Positions 4,308-21,919 of a stretch of 64,000 bases of DNA are shown in pieces. The position numbers were made by a program, and so were the translations under genes. The notes under the pieces are model-generated. The model was given only the letters and a program-made list of their open reading frames with translations, was not told the origin of the DNA and did not search any database. The stretch lies in NCBI GenBank assembly GCA_000091205.1, contig AP006491.2. One strand, written 5' to 3'. Numbering within the stretch: position 1 is the first letter of the stretch; every line of letters starts with the position of its first letter. The stretch comes from Cyanidioschyzon merolae (taxonomy: Eukaryota).

Positions 4308-5828
4308 ATGCTCGCGTCCAGAGCTTTTCATAGCATATCTCCGGAAGAAGGAAAAAGTCCTCGCTCTCGTGGACTGCGACGTGCATCCTCTTGGAACCGG
4401 CGGGGTGTACTGTGGCTCGTTGCGATCGCTTTTTTTGGAACAGGATTTCTTCTGGGTCTGCTGTGTGCGCCGAGCGTGTCACCGTTTCGGCGTTTCGGGG
4501 CGGAAAGCGTCGATTCAAGTACAGACGCGGTGGACCAAGAGAGAGCGCACGTCCAGGGTCGTCGAGACCTATCGGAGGCAGGCACGTCCGGGCGCTCTGC
4601 TGTGGAGGTTGTTGCGGCGGCGCTGCTGGCAACCCAGAACCCGACAGACTGCGCCAAGGCCCGATACCTGATTGTAGACGAGTTTTCCGATCAGCATGGA
4701 CTTGGTTTCAGTCTGATCACGGTGTTCAAGTTCCTTTATGTTGCGCATGTCGAACGGCGCGTTCTGCTGCTCCTGCCGTCATTCACGTCTTACCCGTGGC
4801 GTTGGTGTCATTGGCCGCCTGCATCGTACGGTTGCTATTTCGAGGACGTCACGTACTGCGCAACGCGGATGCAGTTCGACCAGGCGCTCCGCGACCGCGT
4901 CATTCCACGGAACTGGAGCGCGATCCCCGACTGGAAGGGCATCGAATCCATCGATGAACGGGTGGTGATTTTCCGACAAAAATATCTCTCGCGTGCCCGG
5001 ATCGAAAGTCGCGCAATCTACCAGGCCTGGAGCATGTTCGAGCACGCCTTTGGCAGCGGACTCAAGAAATACGGGCGATTCTTCTACTACGCTGTTGCGC
5101 AGCGCGTGCTGCTGCAACCCAAGGTTTGGTTGGAGCACGCTGCGCTTACCCAACGCGAGCGCTGGAGTCTAGAGCAGAACAACCCGCTCGTGGTCGTGCA
5201 TGCTCGACACGGAAGCAAACACATCGAGCAAAAGCATATCCCGGTTTCGGAGTTGGCTGCGAGCGCGCTTGCTTTTTGTGAGTGCCTCGGCGTGCGCGAC
5301 ATTTTACTGATCACCGAGACCGAGCGCGTCATTGTCGACTTCAAACGAGCCGTGCAGCATGCACCAGTGCGCGTCCTCTACACAGAGTATTGGCGCCCAG
5401 AAGGCGATGTCTGGAACAAGAATCTGGTGGGTCAGCTCAAGCTGAAACCCGTGAACGATTCCGTGATCGACGTCATCGCGTACCATTCGATTCTGAATCT
5501 GCTGTTGGCTCGGACAGGCGTGGCTTTTGTGGGCACCATCCAGTCTGCCTTTTTGAAGTTGCTAGTGAGCACCGCATATGCGCACCAGAAAGCACCAGTC
5601 AGTATCCATAGCTTGCGCGCTGGATGGCGAATCAGGGACGGGTACCCTGCAGCGGATGCCAAGTACTGGAGTTTCGACCCGTGCCGCTTACCACATCCAT
5701 GTGAACACGTGGCGCTACCCTGCTCCAAAAACGGGAAGGGATTTCCAAGGCGAAGCATGAGTCAAGCAACCGACTTTTCGACGCGACCGGCCGATATCGA
5801 CCACGAGCCGTCGCAGCTGCACGAATGA
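4308..5828 (+). CDS. GT23-family (alpha-1,6-fucosyltransferase FUT8/NodZ-like) type II membrane glycosyltransferase
   Basis: The ORF is 4149..5828; the likely start is the ATG at 4308 (MLASRAF...). A signal-anchor VLWLVAIAFFGTGFLLGLLCA is present. Motif layout CAKARYLIVDEF..GLGFSL..RVLLL and VVVHARHGSKH matches the conserved FUT8/NodZ motifs (..GxG..H, HVRRTDK-like). Confidence 0.7.
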   Translation: MLASRAFHSISPEEGKSPRSRGLRRASSWNRRGVLWLVAIAFFGTGFLLGLLCAPSVSPFRRFGAESVDSSTDAVDQERAHVQGRRDLSEAGTSGRSAVEVVAAALLATQNPTDCAKARYLIVDEFSDQHGLGFSLITVFKFLYVAHVERRVLLLLPSFTSYPWRWCHWPPASYGCYFEDVTYCATRMQFDQALRDRVIPRNWSAIPDWKGIESIDERVVIFRQKYLSRARIESRAIYQAWSMFEHAFGSGLKKYGRFFYYAVAQRVLLQPKVWLEHAALTQRERWSLEQNNPLVVVHARHGSKHIEQKHIPVSELAASALAFCECLGVRDILLITETERVIVDFKRAVQHAPVRVLYTEYWRPEGDVWNKNLVGQLKLKPVNDSVIDVIAYHSILNLLLARTGVAFVGTIQSAFLKLLVSTAYAHQKAPVSIHSLRAGWRIRDGYPAADAKYWSFDPCRLPHPCEHVALPCSKNGKGFPRRSMSQATDFSTRPADIDHEPSQLHE

Positions 5829-6549
5829 GCTGGGGAAGCGGCTGCATAGCCAATGCCGCGACGCGTGCCTTGCGCGGATGCGCCGGCACCCGTCGTGAGC
5901 GGCCTCTGTGCAAGTCACCCGGACCGCGCTCCAGGTAGCAGCAAACGGTGCCCGATACCCCGTTGCGCTGACAAGCCTGGATGCTGGGCAACGACGCAGG
6001 TATACACGGCCGTAGGCACAGGGATGCTGGCGATCGCGTCGTTTCGCGGCGCTTTGCGATCACGTCACCGGCCTGCGTTGGTGTCCGCGGCACCGTGACG
6101 CCACCTGGATGTATCGTTCCCGCGTCCTGACACCCAGGGCACTCGACTCGAGTCCCCGCAGCGCTGATTCGTTTGTGCTCCAGACAATCCGACCACGAGT
6201 AGCAGCGCTGGAGAGATGGAAAGCGCTGTTGGGCGACGCAATGGCGTACTGCTGCTCCTGATCCCATATCTCTGCATCCGTACGCTTCGACAGAGGCGAG
6301 CGCGTCTCTTTGATAGCGGTAATGGGCGTGTACAGTCCAGCGTGATTTAAACTCGAGTTTATAGTCGCAACGCAGATGCATGCGATAGGTGATCGTTGCG
6401 GACGAAATCCGCCGCACCAGCCGCCTTGCCTGGGAGCAGACGCTCGACAGCAACACTACTTGATCACCGTTACGAGGACGCACAAGACGATCCTGTTAAT
6501 CAACGTCGACGTCGTCGCATGACCCCACTCGGTACTCCATGTCAGCGTC

Positions 6550-15300: not shown

Positions 15301-17060
15301 AGTGAAGAAAGGCACTGGAGTATTGATAGGCACAAACGCGCATCGAAGAGGCGAGCTTTGGAAACACCGTCCATCCAGTACGTCCGAACCCCGAGGGAAG
15401 ACACAAGTACAGAGTATACCAACCAAAACAATACATCCCAGCCAAGTAGAGGAGAGGGCGAAGGAGCTGGTCTCTGTAACCAAGCACGAAGCATTCGAGC
15501 AACACCGCGAGTAGCATTGGCAGAACTGGTTCAAGGTCTCTCGTTTACAGTGACGATGGAGACAGACACGATATGCATCTGCTTGCACTGGGTGAACCAT
15601 TCTCCTGAAATGAGCAAATCGATTCATGTTCAAATGCTCCCGGTACATGAAGACGGAGACTTGTCGATGAGCGTAGATTCCGGCTAAAAAAGGCGTCATG
15701 GCCGTCGTCGTATCCCCAAATGAAGAGGACTGAGCCACAGACTTGGATGGTGAGCAGATGAAGCGGCTCAGCAATTCCAGGAATCCGTGGTACAGTCTGT
15801 CGGGCATGATGAACCCCGGGAGACATTCCACCACTTCGAATGACGGCGACAGGACCCGCTCGCCGTTCTCGGGCCTCTGAACATCGCATCGAACAGGATT
15901 GGATGCTTTATATGCTTTTGTCGGCGGGTAAAGTAATGGATCATATAGATGATCTTCGGTCGGCGTCCATGAAGCCACACGTATGTCGGCGACAGTTTCA
16001 GTCGTCCAGAGGCCAGCAGCGTGCAGTCGTCAATGTCTTGCATGCAATGAATAAGAAAACGACCGAAAAGTCGTATCGTTTCCTGGTAGCATATGGCGCT
16101 GGACGTGCCGTAGCGCGCAAGGGCTGCACTCCTGCTCCGCCCGGACCAGAGCATTTAAGGTGTGTAGGAAAGGATTCTTTACGATTCCAACCGAACCGCT
16201 CAGGATGACATGTGCGCATCACGAGCACGAGTACAAGCAGAGACTCGTAAAGAGAAAGCAGATGAAACAGCGCGGGGTGCCTTTTGTGGTATACGGTGCG
16301 CTCACCGAACGTCAGATGGAAGGCCAGTCACAGCGGAGAGGCCTGCCCTGCAGCGATTCCGCCAGCAACCGTGCGCGCACGCATCTACCGCTTCGAGATT
16401 TGAACGCCCCGAGCAGCGTTGGGAAACGCCTTGGAATTCCGAAGTATCCAGCTGCTCTACCTCAAGCGAACTTTCCATGGCATCGTTTAGGACTCCATGC
16501 AGGCATCGTACTGAATCACCGAAGACTTTCGATGGAAACAACTCAGTCGCAAGTGGGGACAGGGCTGGATGCTCGCGTGCAGCTCGGCACTCGAATGCCA
16601 CAATCCAGCAATGCATCGAGGCTGGAGTGCTGCACGCAAGGATCTACACAGGGAACAATGGCCCGGTGCACTTGATCAGACATCATCGTGTCCGACAATT
16701 CGATACGTTTGCGTATGTGCGTCGACCGTTGCCGTAAATGGATTATATACGCGTCTTGATGACAAGCTGACGCATGTTGTCCAGATGCAGGTCGAGATGC
16801 CTGCTCGCGAATCCCGATATGTCTCTACCGTTGACGCCGTGGCAAGCGCGCCTCCGCAGCGATGCACGGATGCTGCGTGTGCGTGGCACGCATCCGTCAC
16901 GTGACATCATCCGTGTATCGCGGTGCGTGGCAGCACTCTGTGGACACGACGACGCGGGATGCACATGCATCCCGGCGTTTGCTTCGGATGTCTATAGAGC
17001 GTCCGTTTTTTTCGTCTTTTATCGATAGGTGAGTCTGGATCGGATGCTGAACCTGGGCCT

Positions 17061-18044
17061 TTACCGAGTCGACGCTGCAGACGTCGCATTCCGAAGCGAG
17101 TCCTGGGCCAGCAGAGAACGCTCGGTTAACAGACCAGCACGCACGACGCGTACTGGTTTCTTCGGTGTATTGCGGGGGCGGTTGCTTCCTACCTCTTCGA
17201 TGCGTCGAATCGTGTCCATACCGTCAAGAACCTGCCCCAAAGGCACGTATTTGCCGTCCAGATACCCGGCATCGGAACCGGTCGTGATGAAAAACCTGCC
17301 GTCGCCCTCGTTGCGGTCGTTGCGGACCAAACCGACCAGACCTGCACGATCGAAGCGCAAGCGCGGAGCTTCTAGTAACCATCGTTCGCTTCGGGGCACT
17401 GGGTCACCCGCTTGCAACGTCAGTCCCGGCACAATGCGGTAGAATGACGTGTTCGTGTACCTGTGGATACAGCAGTCGAGGAAATGTGCACTCGACACAG
17501 GCGCCACCTCGCCAAAGACTCCAATAACGATTCGACCAGCCGGTTGGCCATCGATCTCAATGTCGAGGTAGCAGCGGTCAGTGATCTGTGGGGCCAAGTC
17601 GTCCAGCGCCTTCAGCGCAGAGTCGCGCTTCGCGCCATTCGATTCGCTCGCAGCCAGAGCCGTGCTTTGCAGTGACATCGTTCGAGCTGAGGCAGCTGCT
17701 GTAGGCGGCGTACCGTTAGACAGCTGATGCTCCACAAATCTCTGCAGTGGAATGTCGGAGGCGTTGCAGGTTTGCCAAGATTCGGGTGCGCGTTCCAGAT
17801 GCGTACCTACGAACCCTGATGGCAATGCGTCTGTGTCCGCTGCAGAAGCAATGACAACAGCGGAAGCAGACTTTGGCAAAGAAGCTCTTGTTGCTGTTGG
17901 CGCTTCTGGACGGGCCTCAGCAACACGACCTGGACCTGGCATTGGAGCCATTGCAGCGTCGACAGAGGCGAACGGCAGCCATAAACTCAACGCGCTCCAG
18001 GCTACGGCCAGGATGATAGCACTTGCCTGAAATGGCACTTGCTT
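17061..18044 (-). CDS. Cyclophilin-type peptidyl-prolyl isomerase-like domain protein preceded by a signal-peptide-like hydrophobic segment, in frame with the upstream aminopeptidase ORF
   Basis: C-terminal 150 aa: CYLDIEIDGQPAGRIVIGVFGEVAPVSSAHF...SFYRIVPGLTLQAGD...GRFFITTGSDAGYLDGKYVPLGQVLDGMDTIRRIEEV, collinear with the CypA core (FHRIIPGFMCQGGD, FFICT..LDGKHVVFGKV). It is divergent: W121->Y and H126->Y equivalents. The upstream segment RKQVPFQASAIILAVAWSALSLWLPFASVDAA|MAP resembles an n-h-c signal peptide. There is no in-frame stop between this and the M24B aminopeptidase. Confidence 0.65.
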   Translation of the reverse strand, partial: KQVPFQASAIILAVAWSALSLWLPFASVDAAMAPMPGPGRVAEARPEAPTATRASLPKSASAVVIASAADTDALPSGFVGTHLERAPESWQTCNASDIPLQRFVEHQLSNGTPPTAAASARTMSLQSTALAASESNGAKRDSALKALDDLAPQITDRCYLDIEIDGQPAGRIVIGVFGEVAPVSSAHFLDCCIHRYTNTSFYRIVPGLTLQAGDPVPRSERWLLEAPRLRFDRAGLVGLVRNDRNEGDGRFFITTGSDAGYLDGKYVPLGQVLDGMDTIRRIEEVGSNRPRNTPKKPVRVVRAGLLTERSLLAQDSLRNATSAASTR

Positions 18045-18134
18045 ACGTCCAACCGAATCCGAGGAGCGTGCACCACCACCGGAAGGCGCACCAGTAGCGG
18101 TCTCGTTGCGCGTAGCACCAGCGGGGGTATCCCC

Positions 18135-20315
18135 ATGCGACTGGCGTTGGATGGGTGCACAGGCGCGTTCCAGCCACCGAAGAACAGCGGTCTCGTTACG
18201 TTCCTTCAAGCACGGTGCAATGCGTTCATACACTTCACGATGATAATGATTCAGCCAGGCGATCTCTTCATCAGACATCTGATCCAAGTCTAGTAAATCG
18301 GTGGATATCGGGACCATGGTCAAACGCTCAAACCCCAGAAACCGCTGACCACCAAAACTGCGCGCCGTCTCTACTGGTCGAACCACGAGCAGATTCTCAA
18401 TCCGAATACCAAATTCGCCATCCTCGTAGTAGCCGGGTTCGTTACTTAGAATCATGCCTGGTCGTAAGCCAACCGATGCAGCGTTCATTCTCGGAGAGAT
18501 GCTCTGCGGGCCTTCGTGGACGTTCAGCGCTGCCCCGACACCATGCCCCGTGCCGTGGCGATAATCCAGACCCAGACCCCATAGCGAGCGTCGAGCAAAG
18601 CTGTCCAGCAGTGTACCAGGGGTATTCTCTGGGAACACCGCCGTATCAATCGCAATATGGCCCCGCAGCACGCTCGTGTAGCAGCTCCGCACGTACGCGT
18701 CAGGTTTCCAAGTCGTGCGTTGTCCGCCGAGGAACAAAGTGCGCGTTACGTCCGTGGTACCGTCGACGTACTGGCCGCCAGAATCCAACAGGAGCACGCT
18801 ATTCGGCTCCCAGGTCCGACATTCATTCGGATCCGCGCGGTAGTGGATAATGGCGCCATTCGGACCGAGTCCCGCGATCGTATCGAATGAAGTGAATAGG
18901 AATCCTGATTCTTCGGCGCGAAACGCGGTGAGCCTCTCCGCGATGATGTGCTCATTCAATGCGCTGTACTTGGAGCTATCTTCACTGATCCGCTCCACCT
19001 CTGATTCCAGCCAGTGAAAGAACCGGCAAAGAGCGACTCCGTCACGAAGATGTGCCGCACGCATCCCAGCTAATTCCACGTCATTCTTGATCGCTTTCAT
19101 CAACGAGAGCGGTGTGGTATGCAGATACACTGCCTGAAGGCGACGTCGGAGGATCGCTGGATCCTCTTGAGCGGCAACGAAGCTATCCGCATCCAAGCCA
19201 GCGGCATGAAGCAGCATAGCCAACGAGACACTCGAAGGATCCATCCACAGGCGCTGCTTGCCTGGGCCGTAGTGTTCCCGTAGATACGATGCACACGCTT
19301 CATAGGGGCGCGTCTGAACCCCGTTCGCACGCAAATGTTCCTGGACGGCGACAGCGTTCGCCCCATCAAGTTTGGATGTGTCTACGAACAGTAGTGCGTC
19401 GCCCTCGCGGGGTACTAGGCCGTATGCCAGCACAACCGGACAATGTGGGATATCCTCCCCGCGAATGTTGAAAAGCCACGCAACCTCATCGAGCATGGAC
19501 ACGAAGACGCCGTCGACTCCTTCAGACATTTTTTGCCGGATTGCGGCAATTTTCTCCGCTGTAGATTGCCCAGCGTACTCCAGTGGATGAACTCGTACTG
19601 GGTTCGTCGGTAGCGACGGGCGCTTTGCTCCCCAGATCCGATCGACTGGGTGAGCCACAGCCTCCGGCAACGGCACAAGATGGATATCGAGTTCGAGCAC
19701 CCGGGAAACCCAGGCGTAGTGATGCACAAGCGGGTCGATGCCGACGCGATAGATACGACCAGCGCGTCTATGTTCACGGGAGCGTTCGGCGAGAAAATCT
19801 TCCAAAGTTGGCGTACCTGGCGTGCCCGTCTTCATGAGTCGCCAGCCCTCGGGCAGCTGCCGCTCAGCCTGAAGGAAGTACCGGCCATCCGTCCAAAGAT
19901 ACGCCTCCGCGTCGCTGCTGGTCACCAGGGCGGTCCCGGCGGAACCAGTGAAGCTCGTGAGGAACTCGCGTCGCGCATAGTGTGGCGGAGGATACTCCGA
20001 CTGATGCGGGTCTGCAGTTGGGACAATGAAAGCGTCGAGTGACTGTGAACGAAGCCAGCCTCGAACTGCCTCAACTTTGTCCGCAAGCGCAAAGACGTGG
20101 ACGTGTTTTCGATGTTGCCTTCGCGGTGTCTCTTCTTGGGGTCGATCTCGTACGAGCCTTTCCTGTCGCCTCGAACTTCGAAACCTGGTCCAGAGAAGCC
20201 GTCTGTTGCTTGGCGCTCCAGGAGCAAACGGCCGCCGCGTTACCAGACTGAGGCAACGACCGAGTTGTGGCTGCGACAGCCGTCCCGACGCCACGCTACC
20301 TGTGTGTAACCACAT
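18135..20315 (-). CDS. Xaa-Pro aminopeptidase (aminopeptidase P, M24B family) with ~75-aa Arg/Ser-rich N-terminal extension (possible mitochondrial presequence)
   Basis: AFIVPTADPHQSEYPPPHYARREFLTSFTGSAG...HGTGHGVGAALNVHEGPQ...EPGYYEDGEFGIRIENLLVV...WLNHYH, collinear with XPNPEP1/3. The ORF continues 3' without a stop into the cyclophilin-like region. The boundary at 18135 is set by homology only. Confidence 0.85.
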
Positions 20316-20412: not shown

Positions 20413-20556
20413 GTCAACGAAAGCCTTATCGCAAAGCACGTGCAAAGTGTTTATTCGACTCGCAGTTAAATCCGTATCACAAAGCACGTGCAAAGTGTTT
20501 ATTCGACGCTCAGTTAAAGCCTTCTCACCCAGCACTTGCAAAACACTTGCGCAAAC
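20413..20556. repeat. 48-bp tandem repeat (~3 units) containing the palindromic core GCACGTGC (CACGTG) in a bidirectional intergenic region
   Basis: aaagcacgtgcaaagtgtttattcgac recurs at 20423 and 20471, with a degenerate third unit at ~20519. Period 48. Confidence 0.7.
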
Positions 20557-21115
20557 GCCACCGAACGACGCGTTGTAGAGTGCAGCGCTGAAGCAATTCG
20601 GTACTCAGCACGTGGCGGAACGTGTGTCGCGGGTGTACCGTTTGCGAGCCCCGATGTGTCCGAGGTGCCTCCCGCGTCTTTCTCGTATGGCGAGGCGCAC
20701 CAGAGCAAGTCGTTGATCAAGCTTGCGGTTTAGGATGCTGGGCGTGTCCCGGAAGTCGCAGAATCCATGGTTCGCATTCGCTGGCAACTGCAGCACCCTG
20801 GACGCCCCGCATGGATTAGCAGCATCGCCGCGACTGCCATTACAGGTAACCGCACGCGACTCGTCACCTGGGATAGCGCGTTACCTACTGATCCATTCCC
20901 CTGCTGAATTGTGCTTCAATGCCGCTGGGATTCGGTGAATATCCGGAGTGCCTGTCGCTTTACAACCTGAGTCACAGTCCAAGTACATCGACCTCCGTTG
21001 TGCCGGGTGCTAAGATGCCTCCAGAAAACCCACGATTGCTGTGCTGAACACCGAGGAAACATCCCATTCAGGATGCAGCACGGATGAAATGAGCCAAAAC
21101 GCAAGGAAGCAAGTG

Positions 21116-21392
21116 AGGGAAACCCGCTGCTACACCACAGCGCTTTGGGGTCATCGCATCGATGAGAACGCACCCTTACCTCGACGGGAAACCCGCTGCT
21201 ACACCAGAGCGCTTTGGGGTCATCGTATCGATGAGAACGCACCCTCACCTCGACGGGAAACCCGCTGCTACACCACAGCGCTACGGGGTCATCGTATCGA
21301 TGACAACGCACCCTCACCTCGACGGGAAACCCGCTGCTACACCACAGCGCTTTGGGGTCATCGCATCGATGAGAACGCACCCTCACCTCGAC
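21116..21392. repeat. 69-bp tandem repeat, 4 near-identical units
   Basis: gggaaacccgctgctacaccacagcgctttggggtcatcgcatcgatgagaacgcaccctcacctcgac repeated 4x with single-base variants. It lies in the intergenic space between the divergent aminopeptidase (-) and the 21920 gene (+). Confidence 0.85.
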
Positions 21393-21919
21393 GCATGCCA
21401 TTTTTGGCGCCGCGACTGCCGCCGCCGCTGACTGCCAGCGTAACGTGGCAGACGTTGGGCAGCGTTCGCAGCCACTAACACACATCCTACAAAAACGAAT
21501 AAGCAGGCGCTCAGCGTTCCGTACCACGAACTACGGCACAACGGATGTGCGATTCAGGGATACAAGCAGGTGTGATAGTTACCTCCTTTTTCGTCATAAC
21601 GTACACTACAGTATAGATCGACGCACTCCTCGACTTTTGGCTCGTGGCGCACGCTGCAGTCCCAGGTGGTGCTGGCTGCAACCCGAAAGCGCTAGGGAAC
21701 ACCAGCTTGAACCCGTTGGTGGTGGCGGTGGTAGTAGTAGTAGTCATAGTGGAAGAGCTTGCGCTGTGGTCGACCACGAGCACCGAACACGTTGCGTCGC
21801 ACCGTTGGGCAACTCGGTGCAAGCCAAGTTCACGCTGGAGTCGTTGACTTGCTTGCTACACTGTAATCGCGCTCACCGATCGCACGCAAGGAGCAGAGGC
21901 GCAGCAATCGAACGCGAGT

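What the first reader, a model, noticed from the sequence alone, without database searches (positions are those of the whole stretch)
17061..20315. Aminopeptidase P ORF reads through into a cyclophilin-like domain that is preceded by a signal-peptide-like segment lacking any ATG
Seen directly: the 1084-codon minus-strand ORF contains a complete M24B X-Pro aminopeptidase (to ~18135). A 30-aa linker follows, then RKQVPFQASAIILAVAWSALSLWLPFASVDAA|MAP (n-h-c signal-peptide architecture with an AxA-like cleavage site), then a divergent cyclophilin domain. No ATG occurs in any frame within ~180 nt upstream of the hydrophobic segment. On the coding strand the hydrophobic segment begins exactly after ccatttcag (plus-strand ctgaaa at 18027-18032), a polypyrimidine-CAG splice-acceptor-like motif in codon phase 0. 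Inference: one reading is a secreted CypB-like cyclophilin whose tiny first exon (ATG plus a few codons) lies within or over the aminopeptidase 3' end. The other is a true bifunctional proline-specific enzyme (X-Pro cleavage plus prolyl isomerisation), a plausible Rosetta-stone fusion. The cyclophilin has W121->Y and H126->Y equivalents, so it may be catalytically atypical.
Basis: partly seen in the sequence, partly recalled or inferred. Interest (0 to 1): 0.6.

Follow-up and report, generated by a model that had tools for sequence, protein, structure and literature searches.

The report
Red-algal aminopeptidase P–lumen cyclophilin fusion gene
This is one real gene of the red alga Cyanidioschyzon merolae in which a chloroplast proline-specific aminopeptidase is joined, through a retained internal thylakoid-targeting signal, to a cyclophilin that normally lives inside the thylakoid lumen, so a single precursor probably places its two halves on opposite sides of the photosynthetic membrane.

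Summary
The 1084-codon ORF is real. It is the annotated C. merolae 10D protein BAM79964.1, named 'cytosolic aminopeptidase P'. It is a single gene, not two. The same aminopeptidase–hydrophobic segment–cyclophilin order occurs in Cyanidiococcus, Cyanidium, Galdieria, Compsopogon and Rhodosorus. In the last two it is seen in transcripts. In Porphyridium it appears once a 179-nt intron is removed.

The 'signal-peptide-like' segment is the retained thylakoid-lumen targeting signal of the cyclophilin. In four non-Cyanidiaceae orthologues it is a textbook twin-arginine signal, (S/T)RRx(F/L) plus a hydrophobic stretch plus AxA. The nearest free-standing cyclophilins (Pyropia, Agarophyton, Ectocarpus and others) carry the same signal at their N-terminus.

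The aminopeptidase half is complete and all five metal ligands are present. It has an N-terminal presequence of about 65-75 residues and is closest to the plant plastid enzyme AMPP2.

Best model: import into the plastid, aminopeptidase in the stroma, cyclophilin moved into the lumen and probably cut off at the AxA site. A bifunctional enzyme working in one compartment is therefore unlikely.

C. merolae has lost the RR pair (now RK) and has a more hydrophobic, membrane-span-like segment. I found no paper describing this architecture. Topology and cleavage are inferred, not shown.

The parts
17061..20315 (-). Whole ORF: 1084 codons plus the stop at 17061-17063. It equals C. merolae 10D BAM79964.1 / XP_005536250.1.
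20085..20315 (-). N-terminal presequence, residues 1 to about 77. It is the presumed plastid transit peptide: W at position 2, and 10 R/K, 0 D/E and 10 S/T in the first 50 residues.
   Evidence: It has no counterpart in human XPNPEP1; the alignment starts at residue 90 against residue 24. Composition is. pLDDT is below 50 for residues 1-76. Orthologues start MAFA.., MFGF.., MTAF...
18138..20084 (-). Complete three-domain M24B Xaa-Pro aminopeptidase, residues about 78-726. The metal ligands are D511, D522, H591, E626 and E640.
   Evidence: Pfam. 3ctz at E 4e-142 with the ligands aligned to D415, D426, H489, E523 and E537. The ligands are invariant in the orthologues. Arabidopsis APP2 is 46% identical, E 5.5e-167.
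18048..18137 (-). Linker 1, residues 727-756. It is rich in G, S, T and A and is poorly conserved.
17952..18047 (-). Internal thylakoid-transfer signal or membrane span, residues 757-788. The n-region is R757-K758, the h-region is A764-V785, and the c-region V-D-A lies before A788/M789.
   Evidence: Hydropathy. The position matches the RR signals of Galdieria, Compsopogon, Rhodosorus and Porphyridium and of the free relatives. Predicted helix at 763-777 at low confidence.
17601..17951 (-). Linker 2, residues 789-905. It is rich in A, S, T and P, specific to the lineage and fast-evolving.
   Evidence: Absent or short in Cyanidium, Galdieria and Compsopogon. Five of eight amino-acid differences between strains lie in residues 780-899, i.e. 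in and just before this part. pLDDT is below 50.
17124..17600 (-). Divergent cyclophilin domain, residues 906-1064. R55, Q63 and F113 are kept. The changes are F60L, M61T, N102R, Q111R, W121Y and H126Y.
   Evidence: Pfam E 2e-23. PDB sequence search E 3e-23. AF2 pLDDT 90.7 with TM 0.90 to cyclophilins. Site mapping.
17061..17123 (-). C-terminal tail (residues 1065-1084) and stop codon. It is conserved only within the Cyanidioschyzon/Cyanidiococcus group.

Best explanation
This is one nuclear gene that encodes a plastid precursor with four functional parts: (i) an N-terminal transit peptide, (ii) a complete, catalytically equipped AMPP2-type Xaa-Pro aminopeptidase, (iii) an internal thylakoid-transfer signal, and (iv) a divergent cyclophilin of a clade that elsewhere is a free-standing, twin-arginine-targeted thylakoid-lumen protein.

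The gene arose by fusion of an upstream plastid aminopeptidase gene with a downstream lumen-cyclophilin gene. The fusion removed the cyclophilin's own transit peptide but kept its lumen-targeting signal. It is present in Cyanidiophyceae, Compsopogonophyceae, Stylonematophyceae and (inferred) Porphyridiophyceae. The two genes are separate in Bangiophyceae and Florideophyceae and in the one named stramenopile relative (Ectocarpus) and its unnamed, stramenopile-like relatives.

Inferred mechanism:
- The precursor is imported into the stroma and the transit peptide is removed.
- The aminopeptidase folds and stays on the stromal side.
- The internal signal inserts into the thylakoid membrane as a loop, with its positive n-region on the stromal side.
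- The C-terminal cyclophilin is carried into the lumen. The route is Tat in Galdieria, Compsopogon, Rhodosorus and Porphyridium.
- In C. merolae and its closest relatives RR has decayed to RK or a single R and the segment is longer and more hydrophobic. There the route may be Sec-type or spontaneous insertion.

The conserved small-x-small (AxA-type) site after the hydrophobic stretch suggests that the thylakoidal processing peptidase then frees the cyclophilin. This would leave the aminopeptidase tethered to the stromal face by the signal remnant. Alternatively the protein stays uncut as a single-pass protein that spans the thylakoid membrane.

Shown: gene continuity, domain identities, conservation of the architecture, and homology of the junction segment to N-terminal RR signals. 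Inferred: compartment, topology, pathway and cleavage.
For: Single gene:
- The ORF is intact and is annotated as one protein in strain 10D.
- Three contigs from other samples are 99.6% identical with 14-15 substitutions and no indel.
- The same order of parts occurs in P0002, Cyanidiococcus, Cyanidium, Galdieria and Compsopogon.
- The Compsopogon (UniRef A0A7S1T924) and Rhodosorus (MMETSP0011, P0326) transcripts hold both domains.
- In the Rhodosorus and Porphyridium genomes the aminopeptidase and cyclophilin models are adjacent on one strand, 30 and 252 nt apart.
- In Porphyridium a canonical GTAAGT...CAG intron of 179 nt joins them in frame.

Junction is a lumen signal:
- Galdieria STSRRSFLGFFCGLLVSSLLPKKKQLQA|V.
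- Compsopogon MTRRAFGITALSLMLSSGLSALPTSNLRALA|S.
- Rhodosorus LTRRELFFIALAGIWLAILGFGAPKARA|D.
- Porphyridium ESRRDFIKSTIGLGALALLFGNGELLVRPSRA|D.
- [ST]RRx[FL] occurs at 7e-5 per residue in 113 aminopeptidase P homologues. That gives 7e-4 expected in a 10-residue window, yet it is present in 4 of 4 non-Cyanidiaceae fused orthologues.

Cyclophilin clade:
- A full HMMER search with the domain profile was run.
- It finds 63 single-domain relatives that share Q111->R. Of these, 59 have an N-terminal extension of at least 40 residues.
- At least 30 of them have RR followed by an uncharged hydrophobic stretch. Among canonical Q-type cyclophilins the figure is 2 of 23.
- Examples include Agarophyton, Pyropia and Ectocarpus.
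- Ectocarpus and several unnamed relatives begin with an ER signal followed by F or W, the plastid-targeting pattern of algae with red-derived plastids (pattern from established knowledge).

Aminopeptidase half:
- It is complete with all five metal ligands.
- It has an N-terminal extension of about 65 residues free of acidic residues.
- Its best named relatives are plant APP2/AMPP2. That enzyme is a plastid protein with a cleavable transit peptide (PMC13557074).

An AxA-type site follows the hydrophobic stretch in all eight fused orthologues. Plant lumen immunophilins carry RR + hydrophobic + AxA, and those without AxA are thought to be membrane-anchored (PMC3012604).
Against: - There is no experimental localisation, transcript map or proteomic N-terminus for the C. 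merolae protein. No targeting predictor was available.
- C. merolae itself lacks the RR pair (it has RK). Its hydrophobic segment (Kyte-Doolittle 1.94 over 19 residues) looks more like a permanent membrane span than a Tat signal. The pathway, and even whether translocation happens, is therefore least certain in this very species.
- I know of no plastid precedent for a Tat or lumen signal placed after a soluble domain of about 650 residues that probably forms dimers.
- The -3 residue in Galdieria is L, which is atypical for the processing peptidase.
- The presequence could be mitochondrial.
- The full-length AF2 model is too poor (pLDDT 52) to say anything about domain contacts.
- It is unknown whether contigs L001-L003 derive from RNA or DNA.
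Confidence: 0.65

Rival explanations
1. True bifunctional proline enzyme in one compartment. Both domains stay on the same side of the membrane, in stroma or cytosol. The cyclophilin converts cis X-Pro bonds to the trans form that aminopeptidase P needs. The hydrophobic segment is only a peripheral anchor or an interdomain element.
For: Both activities act on X-Pro bonds, and aminopeptidase P is known to be specific for the trans isomer (established knowledge). The fusion has been kept across several red-algal classes. C. merolae has lost the RR pair.
Against: The segment is positionally homologous to cleavable N-terminal RR signals of the free relatives and is a canonical RR signal in four fused orthologues. 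An AxA-type site is kept in all of them. Six of the twelve CypA active-site and cyclosporin-contact positions examined are replaced, so strong isomerase activity is doubtful. In Pyropia and Agarophyton the two genes are unlinked.
Confidence: 0.12
2. Two genes in C. merolae. A separate cyclophilin mRNA has a tiny upstream ATG exon spliced to the acceptor-like CAG at 18027, or has an internal promoter. The long ORF would then be a coincidental read-through.
For: There is a polypyrimidine-CAG directly before the hydrophobic segment. In Rhodosorus and Porphyridium an intron does lie in the junction region, and database models there split the gene.
Against: The frame is continuous in every cyanidiophyte sequence and strain examined. 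In Rhodosorus the intron joins the aminopeptidase-signal exon to the cyclophilin exon, as the transcripts show. The only donor-like GTAAG near the CAG is 20 nt away. A free cyclophilin starting at M789 would lack any targeting signal. C. merolae has only about 27 introns (from memory).
Confidence: 0.03
3. Mitochondrial rather than plastid protein. The aminopeptidase sits in the matrix, is anchored in the inner membrane, and the cyclophilin lies in the intermembrane space.
For: The presequence is arginine-rich and free of acidic residues, as mitochondrial presequences are. Mitochondrial X-Pro aminopeptidases exist (Icp55/XPNPEP3, from memory).
Against: The aminopeptidase is of the three-domain APP1/APP2 type and is closest to plant plastid AMPP2. 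Ectocarpus and several unnamed relatives of the cyclophilin have ER-signal + F/W plastid presequences followed by RR signals. Red-algal orthologues start with F-containing N-termini typical of rhodophyte transit peptides (motif from memory).
Confidence: 0.07
4. Same topology as the best explanation, but the protein is never cleaved. It is a permanent single-pass thylakoid protein with a stromal aminopeptidase and a lumenal cyclophilin. It might act on both ends or faces of substrates at a thylakoid translocon.
For: The hydrophobic stretch is 19-27 uncharged residues long, with Kyte-Doolittle values of 1.5-2.1 in C. merolae, Cyanidiococcus, Cyanidium and Rhodosorus. Some plant lumen immunophilins are thought to remain anchored (PMC3012604). 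Rhodosorus transcript variants end just after the span, which suggests the anchor has value for the aminopeptidase on its own.
Against: An AxA-type site is kept in all eight fused orthologues. The Rhodosorus short forms may simply be unspliced RNA.
Confidence: 0.3

Closest known systems
Arabidopsis AMPP2 / APP2 (At3g05350, Q8RY11), plastid Xaa-Pro aminopeptidase
   Same: It has the same three-domain M24B architecture with a cleavable N-terminal plastid presequence. It is 46% identical over the aminopeptidase part. It has strict X-Pro specificity and is the plastid enzyme that removes Ser2 of RbcL (PMC13557074).
   Different: The plant enzyme ends after the M24 C-terminal domain. It has no hydrophobic segment and no cyclophilin. 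I did not test whether red-type RbcL or any other red-algal protein is a substrate.
Free-standing twin-arginine-targeted lumen cyclophilins of algae (Pyropia GAB0493896.1, Agarophyton P0266, Ectocarpus P0186) and the plant thylakoid-lumen cyclophilins (CYP20-2/PnsL5 in solved structures; CYP28 and CYP26-2 from memory)
   Same: They share the cyclophilin fold. The algal relatives also share the clade marks Q111->R and H126->Y/F. An RR + hydrophobic + AxA signal lies directly upstream of the domain. PnsL5 matches at E 9e-15 and TM 0.89.
   Different: In those proteins the signal is N-terminal and sits behind a short transit peptide. Here it is internal, behind a protein of about 720 residues. 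CYP20-2 keeps the canonical active site, and this clade does not. I could not test which Arabidopsis member is the orthologue.
Bacterial dual Sec-Tat membrane proteins with internal twin-arginine signals (actinobacterial Rieske protein; Keller et al. 2012, PMC3471235; Tooke et al. 2017, PMC5449189)
   Same: An internal RR signal and membrane span directs a folded C-terminal domain across the membrane while the N-terminal part stays behind.
   Different: These are bacterial. The internal signal follows Sec-inserted membrane helices, not a large soluble enzyme. It is not cleaved, and the exported domain carries a cofactor.
Bipartite presequences of thylakoid-lumen proteins (a stromal-targeting domain followed by a lumen-targeting domain)
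   Same: The logic and order of signals are the same: envelope transit first, thylakoid transfer second, and an AxA cleavage site (PMC3012604; general knowledge).
   Different: Here a whole functional enzyme lies between the two targeting elements and presumably stays in the stroma.
Human cyclophilin B
   Same: It has the cyclophilin fold preceded by a cleavable hydrophobic signal. It is among the best structural matches (TM 0.89-0.90).
   Different: CypB has an ER signal and a canonical active site. Here the context is plastid and thylakoid, the signal is derived from an RR signal, and six of the twelve CypA active-site and cyclosporin-contact positions examined are replaced.

Membership tests
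M24B Xaa-Pro aminopeptidase, three-domain APP1/APP2 type | Domain architecture Creatinase_N + Creatinase_N_2 + Peptidase_M24 + Peptidase_M24_C | tested here: met
   All four Pfam models score above their cut-offs. The sequence aligns end to end with human XPNPEP1 3ctz, E 4e-142.
M24B Xaa-Pro aminopeptidase, three-domain APP1/APP2 type | Five ligands of the two-metal centre (D, D, H, E, E) | tested here: met
   D511, D522, H591, E626 and E640 align with D415, D426, H489, E523 and E537 of 3ctz. They are invariant in seven orthologues.
Plastid AMPP2 (plant APP2) orthologue | N-terminal cleavable plastid transit peptide and stromal location | tested here: inconclusive
   There is an N-terminal extension of about 65-75 residues with 10 R/K and 0 D/E in the first 50. 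Orthologues have F-rich starts. No predictor or localisation data were available.
Plastid AMPP2 (plant APP2) orthologue | Removes Ser2 before Pro3 of RbcL | not testable with these tools
   This is shown only for Arabidopsis (PMC13557074). The red-algal RbcL N-terminus was not examined.
Cyclophilin-type PPIase (PF00160) | Cyclophilin beta-barrel fold | tested here: met
   Pfam E 2e-23. AF2 pLDDT 90.7. Foldseek TM 0.85-0.90 to many cyclophilins.
Cyclophilin-type PPIase (PF00160) | Canonical catalytic and cyclosporin-binding residues (CypA R55, F60, M61, Q63, A101, N102, Q111, F113, W121, L122, H126) | tested here: not met
   R55, Q63, F113 and L122 are kept. F60L, M61T, A101V, N102R, Q111R, W121Y and H126Y are changed, and most of these changes are shared by all red-algal orthologues. 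Enzyme activity cannot be tested here.
Twin-arginine (Tat) signal peptide | (S/T)-R-R-x-F-L-K-type motif before the hydrophobic region | tested here: not met
   C. merolae has G-R-K-Q-V-P-F, and its closest relatives have a single R. The motif is met in the orthologues: Galdieria SRRSFL, Compsopogon TRRAF, Rhodosorus TRRELF, Porphyridium SRRDFIK.
Twin-arginine (Tat) signal peptide | Moderately hydrophobic h-region of about 12-20 residues followed by an AxA-type cleavage site | tested here: inconclusive
   An AxA-type site (V-D-A) is present. The h-region is long, 22-27 uncharged residues, and strongly hydrophobic (Kyte-Doolittle 1.94 over 19 residues), which is more like a Sec signal or a membrane span.
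Thylakoid-lumen cyclophilin clade | Closest relatives are proteins with lumen-targeting presequences | tested here: met
   Among the best 150 representatives, 59 of 63 R-type single-domain relatives have N-terminal extensions. At least 30 of them have RR plus a hydrophobic stretch.
Thylakoid-lumen cyclophilin clade | Actual location in the lumen | not testable with these tools
   This needs fractionation and protease protection, or imaging.
Dual-pathway membrane proteins with an internal Tat signal | Internal RR signal preceded by Sec-inserted membrane helices | tested here: not met
   No other hydrophobic span exists in the protein; the next best window is 1.3. The preceding part is a soluble enzyme.

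The most novel reading that the evidence does not exclude
This could be a natural two-compartment polyprotein of the plastid. One precursor would deliver an active X-Pro aminopeptidase to the stromal face of the thylakoid and, through an internal lumen-targeting signal cut by the thylakoidal processing peptidase, a cyclophilin to the lumen. The signal is Tat-type in Galdieria, Compsopogon, Rhodosorus and Porphyridium. It would be the first natural case of a Tat or lumen signal working behind a large folded soluble domain in a plastid. It has been conserved since before the split of Cyanidiophyceae from the other red algae. It would offer a ready-made test of the loop model of Tat transport.
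Probability: 0.35. Interest if true: 0.7.

Novelty: new variant of a known kind. Interest (0 to 1): 0.55.

Why it matters
Both halves belong to known families, and the gene model is already in GenBank, under a name that is probably misleading ('cytosolic aminopeptidase P'). Three things appear to be undescribed: the internal lumen-targeting signal, the implied split of one polypeptide between stroma and lumen, and the phylogenetic pattern.

In that pattern the two parts are fused in Cyanidiophyceae, Compsopogon, Rhodosorus and Porphyridium. They are separate in Pyropia, Agarophyton and Ectocarpus.

If the topology holds, it shows that a thylakoid-transfer signal can work hundreds of residues from the N-terminus behind a folded enzyme. 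It would also give plastid-import researchers a natural substrate in a transformable, nearly intron-free model alga. The decay of RR to RK or a single R, together with rising hydrophobicity, would document a likely evolutionary switch from a Tat signal to a membrane anchor or Sec-type signal.

The work also corrects database annotations. The gene is split into two models in Porphyridium and Rhodosorus, and the compartment label in C. merolae is probably wrong.

Tried and rejected
1. Word-indexed homologue search with the C-terminal alignment A2. It returned only generic cyclophilins and not even the query's own orthologues, because low-complexity linkers dominated candidate selection. I replaced it with the exhaustive HMMER search.
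2. Naming the Arabidopsis orthologue of the cyclophilin. I searched with P0205, believing it to be plant-like. Its only named relative in that search is the florideophyte Agarophyton, so it is probably red-algal. The AFDB Foldseek library was unavailable. The Romano et al. 2004 paper is not held. The question stays open.
3. Using contigs L001-L003 as transcript evidence. Their ends bracket the gene (window 20527-20570 to 16790-17002), but there is no poly(A) and the sample type is unknown. I count them only as evidence of ORF integrity across strains.
4. Full-length AlphaFold model. With only seven sequences the mean pLDDT was 52. It cannot be used for domain contacts.
5. A 20-nt GTAAGC...CAG 'intron' at 18046-18027. 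I rejected it as too short and frame-breaking.
6. Literature searches for the fusion, for the accession numbers and for tatC in C. merolae found nothing relevant.
7. A tRNA scan of the window found none.

Full report
WHAT IS THERE. The window is nuclear DNA of the red alga Cyanidioschyzon merolae. The minus-strand ORF 17061..20315 (1084 codons) is identical in length to, and clusters with, BAM79964.1 / XP_005536250.1 of strain 10D. That record is annotated 'X-prolyl aminopeptidase, cytosolic aminopeptidase P'. Pfam finds a complete three-domain M24B aminopeptidase P: Creatinase_N at residues 81-206, Creatinase_N_2 at 231-414, Peptidase_M24 at 417-646 and Peptidase_M24_C at 659-722. It also finds a C-terminal cyclophilin domain at 916-1061, E 2e-23.

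The aminopeptidase aligns with human XPNPEP1 (3ctz) residues 24-622 of 623 at E 4e-142. All five metal ligands are in place: D511, D522, H591, E626 and E640. The enzyme therefore ends at about residue 726 and is preceded by about 65-75 extra N-terminal residues. The first 50 residues contain 10 R/K, no D/E and 10 S/T.

Between the domains lie three parts:
- A G/S/T-rich linker, residues 727-756.
- The segment RKQVPFQASAIILAVAWSALSLWLPFASVDAA|MAP, residues 757-788|789. It contains the most hydrophobic stretch of the protein (Kyte-Doolittle 1.94 over 19 residues).
- An A/S/T/P-rich linker, residues 789-905.

The isolated cyclophilin domain folds confidently (pLDDT 90.7). It superposes on canonical cyclophilins at TM 0.85-0.90.

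The coordinates, domains, linker, n-h-c/AxA architecture and the W121->Y and H126->Y replacements are all confirmed. Further replacements are F60L, M61T, N102R and Q111R, while R55, Q63 and F113 are kept. One detail is wrong: an out-of-frame ATG lies 110 nt upstream of the hydrophobic segment, at 18136. The last in-frame ATG is M680 at 18278. The 'acceptor' CAG at 18027 has only one donor-like GTAAG nearby, 20 nt upstream. That is too short for an intron and would break the frame.

ONE GENE, NOT TWO. Three contigs from other samples (one Logan, two JGI) are 99.6% identical over the whole gene. They have 14-15 substitutions, no indel, and an intact ORF across the junction. The same order, aminopeptidase then hydrophobic segment then cyclophilin, is found in:
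- a second Cyanidioschyzon-like genome (P0002, 1067 aa)
- Cyanidiococcus yangmingshanensis (1066 aa)
- Cyanidium caldarium (985 aa)
- Galdieria sulphuraria (906/910 aa)
- Compsopogon caeruleus (830 aa partial, 919 aa complete)

The Compsopogon sequence derives from a transcriptome (UniRef A0A7S1T924). In Rhodosorus marinus (MMETSP0011) the 1030-aa transcript product P0326 contains both domains. Other variants retain an intron in frame (1068 aa) or stop just after the hydrophobic segment (908 and 918 aa).

In the Rhodosorus and Porphyridium purpureum genome assemblies the two parts are annotated as adjacent same-strand genes, 30 and 252 nt apart. The Porphyridium cyclophilin model is truncated at its N-terminus. 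A canonical 179-nt intron (GTAAGT...polypyrimidine-CAG, L004 5732-5910) joins the two models in frame into a 934-aa protein. The Rhodosorus intron lies at the equivalent place, inside the c-region of the signal. So an intron does exist near the junction in mesophilic relatives, but it joins the two halves rather than separating two genes.

By contrast, Agarophyton chilense and Pyropia vietnamensis have a free cyclophilin gene with unrelated neighbours. The Agarophyton aminopeptidase ends right after the M24 C-terminal domain.

WHAT THE HYDROPHOBIC SEGMENT IS. In the orthologues outside the Cyanidioschyzon/Cyanidium group the segment is a textbook twin-arginine signal:
- Galdieria STSRRSFLGFFCGLLVSSLLPKKKQLQA|V
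- Compsopogon MTRRAFGITALSLMLSSGLSALPTSNLRALA|S
- Rhodosorus LTRRELFFIALAGIWLAILGFGAPKARA|D
- Porphyridium ESRRDFIKSTIGLGALALLFGNGELLVRPSRA|D

The pattern [ST]RRx[FL] occurs at 7e-5 per residue in 113 other aminopeptidase P sequences. About 7e-4 is therefore expected in the 10 residues before a given hydrophobic stretch, yet it is present in four of four.

An exhaustive HMMER search with a profile of the red-algal cyclophilin domains shows what the nearest relatives are. After the fused proteins come single-domain proteins of about 230-300 residues that share the clade marks Q111->R ('DSRFF') and H126->Y. They carry N-terminal extensions. Of 63 such proteins, 59 have at least 40 extra residues. 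At least 30 have RR followed by an uncharged hydrophobic stretch under a strict filter, and several more do by eye. Among canonical cyclophilins in the same list the figure is 2 of 23. Named members are Agarophyton (..SRFSRRALLLTTLSTALL..), Pyropia (..STSRRTFLVTAAAA..) and Ectocarpus.

Ectocarpus and several unnamed relatives begin with an ER signal peptide followed by F or W. That is the standard entry signal for plastids of red-algal origin (sequence; rule from established knowledge). The cyclophilin therefore belongs to a clade of thylakoid-lumen proteins. The internal segment of the fusion is that clade's own lumen-targeting signal, kept when the gene was fused behind the aminopeptidase.

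In C. merolae and its nearest relatives the RR pair has decayed: RK in C. merolae, a single R in P0002, Cyanidiococcus and Cyanidium. In C. merolae, Cyanidiococcus and Cyanidium the stretch has also become more hydrophobic (Kyte-Doolittle 1.5-1.9, against 1.07 in Galdieria and in P0002). An AxA-type site is retained in all of them (VDA, ADA, ATA, VRA).

THE AMINOPEPTIDASE HALF. Its best named matches are plant 'aminopeptidase P2' proteins, including Arabidopsis APP2 at 46% identity and E 5.5e-167. A 2026 study shows that this enzyme (AMPP2, At3g05350) is made with a chloroplast transit peptide. It is strictly X-Pro specific and removes Ser2 of RbcL to expose Pro3 (PMC13557074). The red-algal proteins have comparable N-terminal extensions. 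Their starts are rich in F or W (MAFA.., MFGF.., MTAF.., MW..), as expected for rhodophyte transit peptides (motif from memory). The GenBank label 'cytosolic' is therefore probably wrong.

MOST LIKELY MECHANISM (inferred).
1. The precursor enters the plastid and the transit peptide is removed.
2. The aminopeptidase stays in the stroma.
3. The internal signal inserts in the thylakoid membrane with its basic n-region on the stromal side.
4. The C-terminal cyclophilin is carried into the lumen. The route is Tat where RR is intact. In C. merolae it may be a Sec-type or spontaneous route.
5. The conserved AxA-type site suggests cleavage by the thylakoidal processing peptidase. This would release a lumenal cyclophilin of about 32 kDa and leave the aminopeptidase tethered by the signal remnant.

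Step 4 rests partly on the known tendency of raised hydrophobicity to redirect Tat signals (from memory). For step 5, an uncut protein spanning the thylakoid membrane is the main alternative. Plant lumen immunophilins use exactly this RR + hydrophobic + AxA design, and those without AxA are thought to stay anchored (PMC3012604).

Internal twin-arginine signals are known in bacterial dual Sec-Tat membrane proteins (PMC3471235, PMC5449189). There they follow membrane helices, not a soluble enzyme. Six of the twelve CypA active-site and cyclosporin-contact positions examined are replaced (seven counting A101V), so the cyclophilin may be a weak isomerase or a chaperone-like factor. In Arabidopsis only CYP20-2 among the lumen cyclophilins shows PPIase activity (PMC3012604).

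RIVALS.
- A bifunctional enzyme with both domains in one compartment is chemically attractive but conflicts with the nature of the junction segment (confidence 0.12).
- Two separate genes in C. merolae is essentially excluded (0.03).
- A mitochondrial location is possible from the presequence alone but is disfavoured by the affinities of both halves (0.07).
- Whether the protein is cleaved or stays membrane-spanning is open.

EVOLUTION. The fusion is present in Cyanidiophyceae (four genera), Compsopogonophyceae, Stylonematophyceae and, by inference, Porphyridiophyceae. The genes are separate in Bangiophyceae and Florideophyceae and in Ectocarpus and the unnamed relatives with ER-signal presequences. 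Under the accepted red-algal phylogeny (from memory) this suggests an ancient fusion with later separation. Independent fusions are the alternative. The shared intron position in Rhodosorus and Porphyridium favours common descent for those two.

NOVELTY AND LIMITS. The gene model is public and both domains are ordinary. No paper describing the fusion, the internal lumen signal or the implied two-compartment topology was found. The library searched is limited to open-access papers and bioRxiv. No experiment or predictor supports the compartment, topology, pathway or cleavage. The full-length structure model is uninformative. The Arabidopsis orthologue of the cyclophilin could not be named. I class the finding as a new variant of known kinds, of moderate interest.

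Noticed in passing
window 20420-20542 and 21117-21393: Two tandem-repeat arrays lie upstream of the gene. One is 48 bp x 2.6 copies at 85% match, 105-227 nt upstream of the ATG, and is also present in the environmental contigs L001-L003. The other is 69 bp x 4.0 copies at 94% match, further upstream. The 69-bp array creates repetitive pseudo-ORFs on both strands.
   Followed up: no
L004 3563-6546 (Porphyridium purpureum VRMN01000002.1): The database models split one gene. The aminopeptidase model reads through a GTAAGT donor into a stop. The cyclophilin model KAA8497146.1 starts at an internal Met inside the domain. Removing a 179-nt intron (5732-5910) gives one 934-aa protein with an SRRDFIK twin-arginine signal.
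   Followed up: yes
L005 2317-6963 (Rhodosorus marinus JAMWBK010000003.1): The same split annotation occurs here: an 886-aa aminopeptidase plus the 194-aa cyclophilin KAJ8907206.1. MMETSP transcripts show the spliced fusion (1030 aa), an in-frame intron-retained form (1068 aa) and forms ending just after the membrane segment (908 and 918 aa). The short forms could be unspliced RNA or a real aminopeptidase-only anchored isoform.
   Followed up: partly
window 17061-20315 (annotation of BAM79964.1): The public product name 'cytosolic aminopeptidase P' ignores the N-terminal presequence, the hydrophobic segment and the cyclophilin domain. The compartment label is probably wrong.
   Followed up: partly
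window 17617-17977 (residues 780-899): Between C. merolae 10D and the strain of contig L001, 8 of 12 substitutions in the ORF change the amino acid. Five of them fall in or just before the linker after the signal, including L780P at the end of the hydrophobic stretch and R898P/D899N. This suggests relaxed or diversifying evolution of this linker.
   Followed up: no
P0170 (Cyanidium caldarium cluster representative, 980 aa): The N-terminal 560 or so residues of this representative are an out-of-frame, arginine-rich translation. Only the C-terminal part matches P0004. It is a frameshifted gene call, not a different protein.
   Followed up: no
Galdieria sulphuraria P0138 versus P0139: Two annotated isoforms differ inside the cyclophilin domain. 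Isoform 2 (796 aa) ends ..SFSYFRSSYDL after about 60 residues of the domain. It would give the aminopeptidase, the signal and a truncated, presumably non-functional cyclophilin.
   Followed up: no
window 15700-17060: There is a stretch of about 1.3 kb downstream of the stop codon without any long ORF on the gene's strand. Environmental contigs extend 59-271 nt into it. The 3' UTR length is unknown.
   Followed up: no
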